A stretch of DNA of 64,000 nucleotides from an uncultured Candidatus Saccharibacteria bacterium (GCA_964425445.1 CAYRLY010000001.1:5537-69536), one strand, 5' to 3'; shown: positions 12,122 to 50,425, counted from the stretch's first letter. Numbers and translations: made by a program. Notes: a model not told the origin generated them from the letters alone.

Positions 12122-12230
12122 CACATTATCAAGAGAGACGTTAGGGAATTGGCCCATTGAGCGTCCAGCAACCATCATTCACATAAGAGTGAACGGTGCT
12201 AAGTCCAAGCCGGATGGCAAGATAATTATT
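12122..12230 (+). promoter_or_regulatory. SAM-I (S-box) riboswitch in the metK leader
   Basis: Match to the SAM-I core: UAUCAAGAGAGACGUUAGGGAAUUGGCCCAUUGAGCGUCCAGCAACC ... GGUGCUAAGUCCAAGCC. The P1 3' strand GAUAAUUAUU pairs with the 5' AUUAUC. Confidence 0.8.
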
Positions 12231-39016: not shown

Positions 39017-39057
39017 TCTGGACATTTTGGACAATAACGGGTACAATTTTGCTGTTT

Positions 39058-39144
39058 GGGCGTATGGTGGAATTGGTAGACACGCATGCCTTAGGAGCAT
39101 GTGGAGTAAAATCCATGGGGGTTCGAGTCCCTCTACGCCCACCA
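39058..39144 (+). tRNA. tRNA-Leu (anticodon TAG)
   Basis: 87-nt cloverleaf with acceptor gggcgta/tacgccc, anticodon loop cuUAGga, long variable arm, T-arm ggggg-ttcgagt-ccctc and encoded CCA. Confidence 0.85.
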
Positions 39145-39203
39145 AGCTGAGGAAGTAATTCGTTTAGTTTTTCGGCTTGGTGAGTGCAATATTTCGGGGA
39201 CGA

Positions 39204-39292
39204 GAAAGCCGGAGGCGCGACTGGCGCCGAGGCGGGGTCGAGCGAAATTTCAGCAGAAATTTACGCGTGACCGAGTCCCTCTACGCCCACCA
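39204..39292 (+). other. conserved GC-rich structured element (copy A) ending in a 21-nt direct repeat of the tRNA-Leu(TAG) 3' end. Possibly a miniature integrative element, an att remnant or a tRNA-linked small RNA.
   Basis: gaaagccggag + hairpin + gaggcggggtcga + hairpin with a CAGCAG loop + gtgacc + cgagtccctctacgcccacca. The last block is identical to 39124-39144. Confidence 0.6.
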
Positions 39293-39348
39293 ATTTGAGA
39301 AAAAAACTGGATTTATTCCAGTTTTTGTTATTTTGTTATAATAAATGC

Positions 39349-46647: not shown

Positions 46648-46734
46648 GGGCGAATGGTGGAATTGGTAGACACGCAGCGTTCAGAACGCTGTGGCCGCAA
46701 GGTCGTGGAGGTTCAAGTCCTCTTTCGCCCACCA
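46648..46734 (+). tRNA. tRNA-Leu (anticodon CAG)
   Basis: 87-nt cloverleaf with acceptor gggcgaa/ttcgccc, anticodon loop uuCAGaa and long variable arm. Confidence 0.85.
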
Positions 46735-46758
46735 AATTTTAGAAAAGTAATAGGACTT

Positions 46759-46848
46759 GAAAGCCGGAGTCCGCCATGGCGGACGAGGCGGGGTCGACGA
46801 ATTCGCCAGCAGACGAATATCGGTGACCAAGTCCTCTTTCGCCCACCA
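46759..46848 (+). other. conserved GC-rich structured element (copy B) ending in a 21-nt direct repeat of the tRNA-Leu(CAG) 3' end
   Basis: gaaagccggag + tccgccatggcgga hairpin + gaggcggggtcga + hairpin with a CAGCAG loop + gtgacc + caagtcctctttcgcccacca (identical to 46714-46734). Shares its core and hairpin architecture with copy A at 39204-39292. Confidence 0.6.
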
Positions 46849-46955
46849 AGCTTTACATTTAAATTGAATTTTGTTAAGATACAGACAATAAAATCATTAA
46901 ACTAGCTTGAATAAGAATAATTATTATCTCGGGCTAGTTCCGGGATTTTTTGTTC

Positions 46956-47032
46956 GGGCGATTAGCTCAGCTGGTTAGAGCGCCTCGTTTACACCGAGGA
47001 GGTCGCGGGTTCGATCCCCCCATCGCCCACCA
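46956..47032 (+). tRNA. tRNA-Val (anticodon TAC)
   Basis: gggcgattagctcagctggttagagcgcctcgtttTACaccgaggaggtcgcgggttcgatcccccatcgcccacca. Confidence 0.85.
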
Positions 47033-47033
47033 T

Positions 47034-47120
47034 GCCGAGGTGGTGGAATTGGTAGACACGCAGCCTTGAGGTGGCTGTGCCCGCAAGGGCGTGGAGGTTC
47101 AAGTCCTCTCTTCGGCACCA
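47034..47120 (+). tRNA. tRNA-Leu (anticodon GAG)
   Basis: 87-nt cloverleaf, 1 nt after tRNA-Val, with acceptor gccgagg/cttcggc and anticodon loop uuGAGgu. Confidence 0.85.
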
Positions 47121-50337: not shown

Positions 50338-50425
50338 GCCCGAGTGGTGGAATTGGTAGACACGAAGGACTTAAAATCCTTTGGCCTAAAAAACCGTATC
50401 GGTTCGACTCCGGTCTCGGGCACCA
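50338..50425 (+). tRNA. tRNA-Leu (anticodon TAA)
   Basis: gcccgagtggtggaattggtagacacgaaggactTAAaatcctttggcctaaaaaaccgtatcggttcgactccggtctcgggcacca, followed by the aaaaaacagaagaaattctgttttttt terminator. Confidence 0.85.

What the first reader, a model, noticed from the sequence alone, without database searches (positions are those of the whole stretch)
46648..46848. Second copy of the tRNA-Leu-associated element, with structure-preserving variation and a repeat matching its own tRNA
Directly seen: tRNA-Leu(CAG) ends at 46734 with ...caagtcctctttcgcccacca. At 46759-46848 the same architecture recurs. It has gaaagccggag, then hairpin 1 (tccgcc-atg-gcgga, a different sequence from copy A but still a clean stem), then gaggcggggtcga (identical core), then hairpin 2 with the same CAGCAG loop but different stem sequences (cgaattcg...cgaatatcg), then gtgacc. 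It ends in a 21-nt repeat that matches this tRNA and not the one from copy A. Invariant single-stranded blocks, covarying stems and a target-specific terminal repeat are what a mobile structured RNA or DNA element looks like when it recombines at the T-loop/acceptor region of tRNA-Leu genes. The other two tRNA-Leu genes in the window (GAG at 47034, TAA at 50338) lack the element.
Basis: seen in the sequence. Interest (0 to 1): 0.85.

Follow-up and report, generated by a model that had tools for sequence, protein, structure and literature searches.

The report
tRNA-tail insertion element with duplicated target
A small non-coding, highly structured element sits just after two tRNA genes here and after tRNAs of every type across the Patescibacteria, each copy ending in a duplicate of its own tRNA's last ~21 bases; no catalogued RNA family or known kind of mobile element that I tested fits it.

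Summary
Copy B (46735-46848) and copy A (39145-39292) share one architecture: a left arm, a three-way-junction core (AAAGCCGGAG, hairpin 1, GAGGCGGGGUCGA, hairpin 2, GUGAC), then a 21-nt exact repeat of the host tRNA from T-loop C56 to CCA.

It is not specific to tRNA-Leu. A pattern scan and a covariance model found about 80 copies in Patescibacteria genomes, downstream of at least 17 tRNA isotypes. The repeat always matches the local tRNA and starts at C56.

Helices P1, hairpin 1 and hairpin 2 covary strongly: 92.7% of cells are paired, against 33-46% in slid controls.

Close relatives carry exact empty sites at both window loci, so the element is gained and lost as DNA.

The left arm is roughly the reverse complement of the duplicated tRNA segment. 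It can pair with either copy.

No integrase, transposase or reverse transcriptase is linked to it. Rfam, viral contigs and the literature gave nothing.

Best reading: a previously undescribed non-autonomous, tRNA T-loop-anchored insertion element. It is co-transcribed with the tRNA, and its integration chemistry is unknown.

The parts
46648..46734 (+). tRNA-Leu(CAG), intact, CCA encoded. Host gene of copy B.
   Evidence: ARAGORN; Rfam tRNA 55.5 bits.
46714..46734 (+). T1: native tRNA segment from C56 to CCA. Left copy of the 21-nt direct repeat.
   Evidence: Identical to 46828-46848. The empty-site relative L122 has this segment followed directly by the downstream flank.
46735..46751 (+). Spacer of copy B. 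It has no 5' hairpin. It may be a decayed distal left arm.
   Evidence: A comparable short-spacer form is seen in L128.
46752..46759 (+). Left arm AGGACUUG. Pairs with CAAGUCCU (46828-46835) to form helix P1.
   Evidence: P1 covaries across 33 copies; CM alignment.
46760..46827 (+). Core three-way junction. AAA 46760-62; GCC 46763-65; GGA 46766-68; hairpin 1 46769-84; GA 46785-86; GGC 46787-89; GGG 46790-92; GUCG 46793-96; A 46797; hairpin 2 46798-46822 (bulged A, C-AGCA-G loop); GUGAC 46823-27.
   Evidence: RNAalifold; pair counts; CM R1 88.4 bits.
46828..46848 (+). T2: duplicated tRNA segment from C56 to CCA (right copy of the repeat), contiguous with the ancestral downstream flank.
   Evidence: L122 empty site; L120 empty site.
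46926..46946 (+). Intrinsic terminator of the tRNA-Leu(CAG) unit. It lies downstream of copy B, so copy B sits inside the transcript.
   Evidence: The same terminator is present at the empty sites L120 and L122.
39019..39047 (+). Promoter-like site (TGGACA-17-TACAAT) in front of tRNA-Leu(TAG).
   Evidence: consensus match only.
39058..39144 (+). tRNA-Leu(TAG), host gene of copy A. T1 is 39124-39144.
39145..39177 (+). 5' hairpin of copy A.
   Evidence: MFE fold. The ortholog in L123 keeps the hairpin through compensatory changes.
39178..39204 (+). Full-length left arm of copy A. UUGGUG pairs with CACCAA and GGGAC-GA-G pairs with C-GA-GUCCC of T2. It can pair with T1 instead.
39205..39271 (+). 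Core three-way junction of copy A. Hairpin 1 39214-28; GAGGCGGGGUCGA 39229-41; hairpin 2 39242-66; GUGAC 39267-71.
   Evidence: (89.4 bits).
39272..39292 (+). T2 of copy A: 21-nt repeat of tRNA-Leu(TAG) from C56 to CCA.
   Evidence: The empty ortholog L127 has the tRNA followed directly by the terminator.
39302..39326 (+). Intrinsic terminator immediately after copy A.
   Evidence: It is conserved at the empty site L127.

Best explanation
Both window copies belong to a large family of small (about 95-170 nt), non-coding, non-autonomous insertion elements. The family is restricted to Patescibacteria (CPR bacteria) as far as these scans show, and I found no prior description of it.

An insertion adds [optional 5' hairpin] - [left arm, roughly the reverse complement of the tRNA 3' segment] - [AAA + three-way-junction core ending GUGAC] to the 3' side of a tRNA gene. 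It also duplicates the tRNA segment that starts at T-loop C56 and runs to (or a few nt past) the tRNA 3' end. The tRNA therefore stays intact (T1), and a second copy (T2) follows the core.

Shown:
- the element is gained and lost as DNA;
- it lies inside the tRNA transcription unit in this window;
- on the tRNA-sense strand it folds into P1 (left arm with T2), P2 (hairpin 1) and P3 (hairpin 2).

Inferred, with low confidence in the chemistry:
- The left arm acts as a guide or splint that pairs with the T segment of a tRNA gene or transcript.
- This pairing places the element's 3' end (GUGAC-OH) next to C56, where it is joined.
- The interrupted tRNA strand is re-extended from U55, which produces the duplication.
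- The new strand is then joined to the element's 5' end, which the 5' hairpin holds at the far end of the same helix.
- The catalyst is a trans-acting host or unlinked enzyme, or the conserved junction itself.
- Spread between strains is probably helped by homologous recombination after DNA uptake, with the tRNA and T2 acting as built-in homology arms.
For: - Architecture and repeat.
About half are chance hits in high-GC genomes. 62 are low-GC Patescibacteria loci that also have GTGRC downstream. CM R1 finds 80 copies in 66 loci, about 16 of which do not match the search pattern.
- Target: in 44 of the 62 loci a same-strand tRNA lies within 400 nt upstream. Isotypes include Asn, Leu, Ser, Gly, Ala, Phe, Val, Met, Arg, His, Asp, Tyr, Pro, Trp, Gln, Cys, Glu and Thr. 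The sequence after GUGAC repeats that tRNA from C56.
- Repeat length: it ends 1-5 nt past the discriminator in 25 of 31 measured cases. Outliers are 33 nt (L023) and 53 nt (L061, which runs through the terminator).
- Structure: 92.7% of cells are paired, against 73.6% shuffled and 33-46% slid. There are 189 double-change cells against 60 expected. Divergent copies add covariation in P2ext (GCC/GGC to GAC/GUC and ACC/GGU) and show an alternative P3ext.
- Strand: G-U pairs, including the invariant G52-U80, are far more common than A-C. This fits folding of the tRNA-sense strand.
- Gain and loss: exact empty sites exist for copy B (L122; L120) and for copy A (L127). Filled orthologs are L121 and L123-L126, L128.
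- Same core lineage on different tRNAs: L044 (Asp), L047 (Ser) and L070 (Ala).
- Tandem arrays and cargo: L008, L019, L020, L104.
- Left arm pairs with T1 or T2.
- Non-autonomous: the window inserts are 93 and 127 nt. Among the 101 nearest ORFs no Pfam family recurs more than twice, and no recombinase or RT recurs.
- Co-transcription in the window: promoter-like site and terminators.
- Not catalogued: Rfam negative; literature negative.
Against: - No enzyme is identified, and no intermediate (circle, cleaved RNA) has been observed.
- The guide/fill-in scheme needs the left arm to change when the element moves to a new tRNA. I can only offer quasi-palindrome template switching or selection to explain this.
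- The test of whether the left arm is a templated complement of T or a copy of the tRNA 5' strand was inconclusive: 3 cases against 1, with 13 uninformative.
- Many copies have a terminator-like hairpin between the tRNA and the core. That would limit transcription of the core and sits awkwardly with an RNA intermediate.
- The blocks AGCCGGAG and GAGGCGGGGTCGA are invariant partly by ascertainment, because they were the search pattern.
- Presence/absence could in principle reflect ancient presence plus frequent precise deletion between the repeats.
- Junction nucleotides that the search pattern did not fix (GAA before the core, GUGAC after it) stay nearly invariant across Saccharibacteria, Paceibacteria and Berkelbacteria. 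This would also fit a host-useful RNA.
Confidence: 0.6

Rival explanations
1. Host-functional RNA in the tRNA 3' trailer. Either a conformational switch (the left arm pairs with the tRNA's own 3' half or with the decoy T2, and the three-way junction senses a factor and so gates tRNA maturation), or a tRNA-like scaffold (an acceptor/T-type helix made of left arm plus T2) that delivers assorted small structured RNAs to tRNA-processing enzymes.
For: - Both window copies lie inside the tRNA transcription units.
- The T1 / left arm / T2 pairings are mutually exclusive in nearly all loci.
- The junction sequence is strongly conserved across CPR phyla.
- Different cores occupy the same scaffold at one locus, window versus L126.
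- In the long class, the hairpin inserted in the left arm falls at the acceptor/T-stem boundary, which gives a tRNA-like shape.
Against: - Distribution over tRNAs is patchy and differs between close relatives, with exact empty sites.
- T2 decays in many copies (L007, L070, L074, L077).
- Protein-coding cargo of 0.9-1.6 kb can sit between the tRNA and the left arm (L020, L104), which is incompatible with a co-transcriptional switch.
- A terminator often lies upstream of the core.
- Tandem arrays occur.
Confidence: 0.2
2. Small self-cleaving or self-ligating ribozyme, possibly a circular RNA replicon. The conserved three-way junction cuts or joins at GUGAC|C56, which sits exactly at the junction. 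The excised unit (5' hairpin, left arm, core, T) would close into a dumbbell circle and re-enter DNA through an RNA- or ssDNA-mediated step.
For: - The scissile-looking position lies at a junction with no linker nucleotides (J3/1 = 0).
- The unpaired purines (AAA, GGG, A53/G79, bulged A) and a G-U wobble are nearly invariant in the 33 aligned copies, though several of these positions lie inside the search pattern.
- The T segment fits exactly between the element's 5' and 3' ends in the fold.
- The repeat's 3' end tracks RNA-like ends: just after CCA in CCA-encoding genes, and the end of the terminator in L061.
Against: - No match to any known ribozyme class in Rfam, even at E up to 10.
- The junction strands do not fit the hammerhead core.
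- No reverse transcriptase is linked, and group II introns are reported absent from Patescibacteria (PMC13011429).
- T2 never carries a non-templated CCA where the gene lacks it.
- C(GAA)G mini-hairpin tips hint at ssDNA rather than RNA, going by my own knowledge of d(GCGAAGC) stability.
Confidence: 0.1
3. attR-side remnants of conventional tRNA-targeting integrative elements (phage or island with a tyrosine integrase, T-loop crossover class). The repeat would be the att identity block and the core the P arm.
For: - Direct repeats of the tRNA 3' end starting in the T-loop flank the insert.
- Tandem arrays and a 1.6-kb cargo island with the core at its right end occur (L104).
- tRNA-associated rearrangements are common in this lineage (L118, L122).
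Against: - An attP identity block is carried by the element and should be the same wherever it goes. Here the repeat matches each of at least 17 different tRNAs, while the core lineage can be the same.
- Whole inserts are only 93-150 nt, with no integrase anywhere nearby.
- There is no copy of the T-stem 5' strand (core-type site) next to T2.
- The covarying hairpins indicate a folded single strand, not arm-type protein sites.
- There are no hits in 2.9 M viral contigs.
Confidence: 0.07

Closest known systems
Integron gene cassettes and attC sites (including integrase-less CALIN arrays)
   Same: - The recombination-site-like module is a folded single strand with covarying stems, a conserved extrahelical base and a conserved junction.
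- Units occur in tandem arrays, with or without a promoterless ORF in front (L008, L020, L104).
- The sequence 3' of the junction belongs to the target.
- An inverse box inside the unit pairs with that target sequence.
   Different: - There are no R''/R' boxes (RYYYAAC/GTTRRRY), no IntI and no attI.
- The platform is the T-loop of any tRNA gene.
- About 21 nt of target are duplicated.
- The inverse box (left arm) is target-specific and up to 22 nt long.
Integrative elements that target tRNA genes with tyrosine integrases (T-loop sublocation class; Williams 2002, recalled from memory)
   Same: - The insert lies at the 3' end of a tRNA gene.
- The tRNA stays intact.
- Direct repeats run from the T-loop to the 3' end.
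- Tandem integration occurs.
   Different: - There is no integrase.
- The insert is 93-170 nt.
- The repeat is copied from each target, not carried by the element.
- An inverted copy of the target is present.
- The core is a structured single strand.
IS200/IS605-type PATEs and TnpB omega-RNAs; IS110 bridge RNAs; group II intron EBS-IBS pairing
   Same: - The element carries a sequence that base-pairs with its flanking target.
- It has structured non-coding ends.
- Non-autonomous derivatives exist in those families.
- For omega-RNA, the layout is also a scaffold followed by about 20 nt identical to the flank.
   Different: - There is no tnpA, tnpB, IS110 recombinase or intron-encoded protein.
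- There is no match to the Rfam models of these RNAs.
- Those elements make no 20-nt target duplication.
- A nuclease-guiding omega-RNA here would target the intact tRNA gene itself.
CTX-phi-type IMEX elements (folded ssDNA attP recombined by host XerCD)
   Same: - Two inverted target-like segments, separated by about 70-90 nt, fold into a duplex copy of the chromosomal site.
- No element-encoded recombinase is needed.
   Different: - The target is not dif.
- The arms differ for every tRNA.
- No phage genome is attached.
- Xer involvement is untested.
MITEs
   Same: - Small, non-coding, non-autonomous and multi-copy.
- Flanked by a target duplication.
- Inverted repeats fold into a hairpin.
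   Different: - MITE inverted repeats are the ends of a parent transposon and are constant between copies. Here they are target-derived.
- The duplication is 19-53 nt with one fixed end, rather than short and fixed.
- Insertion is restricted to one position of tRNA genes.
Archaeal BHB introns at non-canonical tRNA positions (T-loop included), which transpose among tRNA genes
   Same: - A short structured insert is associated with the T-loop.
- The same insert lineage is found in different tRNAs.
- The insert pairs with the neighbouring exon.
   Different: - Here the tRNA is not interrupted.
- There is no BHB motif and no splicing endonuclease in bacteria.
- The target is duplicated.

Membership tests
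Any Rfam 15 family (4227 models, including hammerhead, twister, twister-sister, pistol, hatchet, HDV-like, group I/II introns, tmRNA, IS605-orfB, HEARO) | Covariance-model score at or above the gathering threshold. | tested here: not met
   Only tRNA and one SAM riboswitch reach threshold in the window. At E up to 10 nothing credible overlaps either copy. Nothing overlaps elements in 17 related loci, L122 or L126.
Hammerhead ribozyme | Three-way junction with CUGANGA and GAA junction strands and a UH cleavage site. | tested here: not met
   The junction strands are AAA, GGG and zero nucleotides.
Integron attC / gene cassette | R'' RYYYAAC and R' GTTRRRY boxes. | tested here: not met
   The 3' junction is GUGAC|C-R-A-N-Y-C-C. 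No GTTRRRY is present.
Integron attC / gene cassette | Integron integrase next to the array, or attC clusters. | tested here: not met
   No recombinase family recurs among the 101 neighbouring ORFs.
Integron attC / gene cassette | Folded single strand with extrahelical bases; ORF-plus-site units in tandem. | tested here: inconclusive
   Hairpin 2 has a conserved bulged A. Arrays and ORF-carrying units exist (L008, L020, L104). This is resemblance only.
Tyrosine-integrase integrative element at a tRNA gene | Direct repeats of the tRNA 3' end flank the insert. | tested here: met
Tyrosine-integrase integrative element at a tRNA gene | Integrase gene within or next to the element. | tested here: not met
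   The inserts are 93 nt (copy B) and 127 nt (copy A). No integrase was found near 62 copies.
Tyrosine-integrase integrative element at a tRNA gene | The att identity block is carried by the element, so one element lineage means one tRNA sequence. | tested here: not met
   The repeat matches the local tRNA for at least 17 isotypes. The same core lineage sits at Asp, Ser and Ala tRNAs.
MITE | Terminal inverted repeats conserved between copies, plus a short duplication of fixed length. | tested here: not met
   The arms differ with every tRNA. The duplication is 19-23 nt, sometimes 33 or 53 nt, with only its 5' end fixed.
IS200/IS605 PATE / TnpB omega-RNA | Association with tnpA/tnpB; no target duplication. 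| tested here: not met
   The Rfam IS605 models are negative.
Group I / group II intron | Interrupts the host gene; catalytic core. | tested here: not met
   The tRNA is complete upstream of the element. The core is about 68 nt. Intron_gpI hits occur elsewhere in L039 but not on the element.
Self-cleaving or self-ligating ribozyme (new class) | Site-specific cleavage or ligation in vitro. | not testable with these tools
   Only circumstantial: the nearly invariant junction and the position of the GUGAC|C56 bond.

The most novel reading that the evidence does not exclude
The free form of the element is a 'padlock': a 5' hairpin, a single-stranded guide (the left arm) and a three-way junction. 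The T-loop-to-3'-end segment of any tRNA gene or transcript fits exactly between its two ends. The conserved junction (or a universal host enzyme that it recruits) joins the element's 3' end to C56 and its 5' end to the tRNA 3' end.

That would make it a guide-programmed mobile element and cassette carrier with no gene of its own, using tRNA T-loops as a universal attachment platform in CPR bacteria. The three-way junction would be a new strand-transfer or ligase ribozyme, or a new recombinase-recruiting fold.
Probability: 0.15. Interest if true: 0.95.

Novelty: categorically new. Interest (0 to 1): 0.8.

Why it matters
- It would add a new widespread structured nucleic-acid family, and probably a new mode of insertion, to a bacterial radiation that covers a large share of bacterial diversity and has tiny genomes.
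- It shows that tRNA 3' trailers in CPR bacteria are a dynamic platform for small structured modules and occasional gene cargo. In this lineage several unrelated cores share the same scaffold.
- If the left arm really programmes the insertion site, the system would be a minimal, protein-gene-free example of guide-directed integration. That would interest both mobile-element biology and genome engineering.
- Practically, the duplicated tRNA ends may help explain contig breaks next to tRNAs in CPR assemblies (several relatives' contigs end within a few hundred nt of these tRNA loci) and can confuse tRNA annotation.

Tried and rejected
- **Known RNA families.** Rfam at gathering threshold and at E up to 10 gave nothing on either copy, on 17 related loci, or on the other cores.
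- **tmRNA, permuted tmRNA, tRNA-like gene.** ARAGORN finds only ordinary tRNAs.
- **Group I intron in tRNA** (reported for Patescibacteria, PMC13011429). Those sit at 35/36 in the anticodon loop and interrupt the gene, so this is not the same thing.
- **Phage or plasmid attP.** No hit in the viral contigs.
- **Linked enzyme.** BLAST clustering of all ORFs within 5 kb and Pfam on the 101 nearest ORFs found nothing recurrent.
- **tRNA-Leu specificity.** Rejected.
- **Chance or assembly artefact.** Rejected by CM scores, by dozens of independent assemblies and by filled/empty orthologs.
- **Left arm as a copy of the tRNA 5' strand versus a templated complement.** Inconclusive.
- **Exact-word scan for solo inverted or direct repeats after all 116 tRNAs.** Too strict to be informative.
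- **Literature.** Searches by topic and by the core sequence string found no description. One possibly relevant 2026 preprint could not be opened.
- **Integration chemistry.** I considered TPRT-like, casposase-like, IS91 (GTTC target), HUH/rolling-circle, protelomerase and fold-back-synthesis schemes. None accounts for all of these together: the fixed C56 junction, the variable repeat end, the inverted target copy and the absence of an enzyme.

Full report
**1. Observation**

- tRNA-Leu(CAG) occupies 46648-46734.
- After a 17-nt spacer comes AGGACTTG (46752-59), then AAAGCCGGAG.
- Hairpin 1 lies at 46769-84 and GAGGCGGGGTCGA at 46785-97.
- Hairpin 2 lies at 46798-46822. It has a bulged A on its 3' strand and a CAGCAG loop.
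- GTGAC lies at 46823-27.
- CAAGTCCTCTTTCGCCCACCA (46828-48) is identical to the last 21 nt of the tRNA.

Copy A, behind tRNA-Leu(TAG) (39058-39144), has the same blocks, different hairpin stems and its own 21-nt repeat at 39272-92.

A covariance model built from 33 copies (31 from other genomes plus these two, so they match partly by construction) scores the two window copies 89.4 and 88.4 bits. Nothing else in 64 kb scores above 10.9 bits. The other six tRNAs are therefore empty.

**2. A large family, not tied to tRNA-Leu**

About half are chance matches in high-GC genomes. The other 62 are low-GC Patescibacteria: Saccharibacteria, Paceibacteria/Parcubacteria groups, Berkelbacteria, WWE3 and Moranbacteria. 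All 62 also have GTGRC downstream.

In 44 of them a tRNA on the same strand lies within 400 nt upstream, usually 58-90 nt. The tRNAs are of at least 17 isotypes. The sequence after GUGAC is an exact repeat of that particular tRNA, starting precisely at T-loop C56.

The repeat ends 1-5 nt beyond the discriminator in 25 of 31 measurable cases. In CCA-encoding genes it ends just after CCA. It can be longer: 33 nt in L023, and 53 nt in L061, where it runs through the tRNA's terminator.

The model finds 80 copies in 66 loci, including about 16 that do not match the search pattern.

Viral contigs gave no hit. The window itself comes from a Berkelbacteria-like organism.

**3. Structure**

I aligned 33 short-class copies. 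RNAalifold and explicit pair counts support a three-way junction with these parts:
- P1: an upstream left arm paired with the first 8-9 nt of the repeat. There is covariation at the positions opposite tRNA N59 and R57, and a tandem G-A variant.
- A GCC/GGC helix that continues, through a GGA/GA internal loop, into hairpin 1.
- GGUCG/UGACC, which continues into hairpin 2.

Overall 92.7% of cells are paired. The shuffled controls give 73.6% and the slid controls 33-46%. There are 189 double-change cells against 60 expected.

The two blocks used as the search pattern are invariant by ascertainment. The divergent copies found by the model show covariation there too (GCC/GGC to GAC/GUC and ACC/GGU). 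They also show a completely different but still complementary P3 base (GGCUGCGAC/GUUGUAGCC) directly in front of C56.

G-U pairs, one of them invariant, far outnumber A-C. The tRNA-sense strand is therefore the folded one.

The junction strands are AAA, GGG and nothing. The bond between the element and C56 lies exactly at the junction.

**4. The left arm**

In most loci the sequence between the tRNA and the core is a hairpin followed by a near-complete reverse complement of the duplicated segment. The whole stretch T1 - hairpin - left arm folds into one long hairpin. Alternatively, the left arm pairs with T2 and closes the junction.

In copy A the fold is very stable (-63.6 kcal/mol, z = -4.7). 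The left arm even pairs with CCAA. Copy B has lost the 5' hairpin and keeps 8 bp of P1.

The T segment fits exactly between the element's 5' and 3' ends. An excised unit containing one T would therefore be a closed dumbbell. This is an inference from the fold.

I could not decide whether the left arm is copied from the target at insertion or adapts afterwards.

**5. Gain, loss and turnover**

*tRNA-Leu(CAG) locus.*
- A relative carrying an identical tRNA 3' end and downstream flank (L122) has the tRNA followed directly by the flank. This is the exact empty site.
- A relative whose neighbouring SBP gene is 71% identical at the protein level (L120) is also empty.
- A 96% relative (L121) is filled, but it carries copy A's version of hairpin 1.

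*tRNA-Leu(TAG) locus.*
- 96% relatives (L123, L124) are filled. Promoter, tRNA and terminator are identical, but the stems of the 5' hairpin and hairpin 2 are rewritten with compensatory changes.
- A 78% relative (L128) lacks the 5' hairpin.
- A 74% relative (L126) has the same scaffold and repeat but a different ~90-nt core.
- A 72% relative (L127) is empty.

The element is therefore gained and lost as DNA. It evolves much faster than its flanks while keeping its fold, and its modules are exchanged.

Nearly identical cores occur at tRNA-Asp, -Ser and -Ala in different genomes. Tandem arrays (L008, L019, L066, L086, L090) and units carrying ORFs exist: L020, and L104 with CYTH plus DUF5677.

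**6. No linked enzyme, no known family**

The inserts are 93-150 nt. ORF clustering and Pfam on the 101 nearest ORFs show no recurrent recombinase, transposase or reverse transcriptase.

Rfam has nothing at any threshold. Literature searches by topic and by sequence string found no description. The reported Patescibacteria tRNA introns are group I introns at position 35/36, which is a different thing.

**7. How it most likely works**

Shown:
- DNA-level insertion that preserves the tRNA by duplicating C56 to the 3' end.
- Location inside the tRNA transcription unit in this window: a promoter-like site at 39019-47, and terminators at 39302-26 and 46926-46.
- A conserved three-way-junction fold on the sense strand.

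Inferred: the left arm acts as a guide or splint for the T segment and places the element's 3' end at C56. The fixed right junction and the variable left junction fit this sequence of events: one precise joining at C56, re-extension of the tRNA strand from U55, then joining to the element's 5' end at the far end of the guide helix. The catalyst is unknown. It could be an unlinked or host enzyme, or the junction itself.

Horizontal spread to the same tRNA in related strains needs only homologous recombination after DNA uptake. These organisms carry competence genes; ComEA lies next to copy A.

I put about 0.6 on 'non-autonomous insertion element of a new kind' and only about 0.25 on this particular chemistry.

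**8. Rivals**
- A host-useful trailer RNA, either a switch or a tRNA-like scaffold. The transcription context and the conserved junction favour it. Patchiness, decay of T2, cargo genes and arrays count against it.
- A new small ribozyme or circular RNA. The junction geometry and RNA-like repeat ends favour it. The absence of RT and of non-templated CCA count against it.
- Remnants of integrase att sites. The fact that the repeat is re-made for each tRNA, and the lack of any integrase, count against it.

**9. Comparison with known systems**

It works somewhat like an integron cassette site or a CTX-type folded attP (a folded single strand, an inverse box pairing with target sequence, arrays). 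It also resembles guide-bearing elements such as group II introns, IS110 and IS605. It meets the defining features of none of them (see the membership table).

**10. Verdict**

The object is real, widespread and uncatalogued, with an unusual target/anti-target/target architecture. Its mechanism is open.

Noticed in passing
L122 (Ga0172381_10106464), minus strand, about 90-290: In the relative whose tRNA-Leu(CAG) site is empty, tRNA-Val(TAC) is followed by an unrelated ~170-nt GC-rich structured insert and a 32-nt direct repeat (GGTCGCGGGTTCGATCCCCCCATCGCCCACCA) that starts before the T-stem. In the window, tRNA-Val (46956-47032) abuts tRNA-Leu(GAG) directly. There is no Rfam hit.
   Followed up: partly
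L126 1116-1290: At the orthologous tRNA-Leu(TAG) locus, the same 5' hairpin / left-arm scaffold and a 25-nt repeat (starting at A59) enclose a different ~90-nt core. It folds with z = -4.6 and has no Rfam hit. Cores appear to be exchangeable modules.
   Followed up: partly
L008 5650-5890; L019; L066 2300-2490; L086; L090 (oriented 440-520): Tandem arrays occur behind one tRNA, in which units with other, unrelated cores (for example AGGATTTTCC... and GACCTTGAG...) use the same left-arm / duplicated-T architecture. The 3WJ core is thus one member of a wider superfamily.
   Followed up: partly
L118 / L119, downstream of the SBP gene: A 79% relative has a complete but different tRNA-Leu(CAG) (different acceptor stem). 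It is followed by about 85 nt and then a remnant of the 3' two-thirds of the window-type tRNA-Leu(CAG), contiguous with the conserved flank. This is a tRNA replacement event.
   Followed up: no
window 46769-46784 versus L121 3030-3098: Between strains whose flanking SBP gene is 96% identical at the protein level, hairpin 1 of copy B is replaced wholesale by the hairpin 1 sequence of copy A (GGCGCGACTGGCGCC). This suggests gene conversion between copies in one genome.
   Followed up: partly
L104 (oriented) 600-2252; L020 (oriented) 700-1591: Protein-coding cargo sits between the tRNA repeat and the left arm. L104 has a CYTH-domain protein plus a DUF5677-like protein. L020 has a 210-aa predicted membrane or secreted protein between two elements that share the same repeat.
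   Followed up: partly
L023, L024, L077, L029 (second copy), L043 (second copy): The tip of the long hairpin between the tRNA and the left arm is often a C(GAA)G / GCGAAGC mini-hairpin. From memory, this motif is exceptionally stable in single-stranded DNA. It may hint that a ssDNA form matters.
   Followed up: no
L100 and L114, right arm: The duplicated T segment is itself interrupted after CGA by a 16-nt hairpin (AAGTGGTAATCCACGG). This looks like a nested insertion.
   Followed up: no
L030 5640-5726 (minus strand); L006 2653-2730 (minus strand): Weaker CM hits show the GGAG-hairpin 1-GAG ... hairpin 2 (CAGCAG loop) module closed by arms that are not tRNA-like. The two-hairpin module can therefore exist outside the tRNA context.
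   Followed up: no
L009, L017, L051, L072, L076, L081 (long hairpin-2 class): In a subclass with a long hairpin 2 (a conserved CUUAG...CUUAGUAAC internal loop) and a 5' hairpin with a CUGC loop, the sequence after GUGAC is not a T-loop repeat. In L072 and L009 the short left arm instead matches the extreme 3' end of the upstream tRNA (for example AUCACAAC in L072). The insertion point may therefore differ in this subclass.
   Followed up: no
window 12123-12228 (+): SAM riboswitch (S-box), 52.2 bits, above the Rfam gathering score.
   Followed up: no
L039 6813-7058 and 7570-7777: Two group I introns lie next to tRNA genes in a Moranbacteria contig that also carries two copies of the element.
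   Followed up: no
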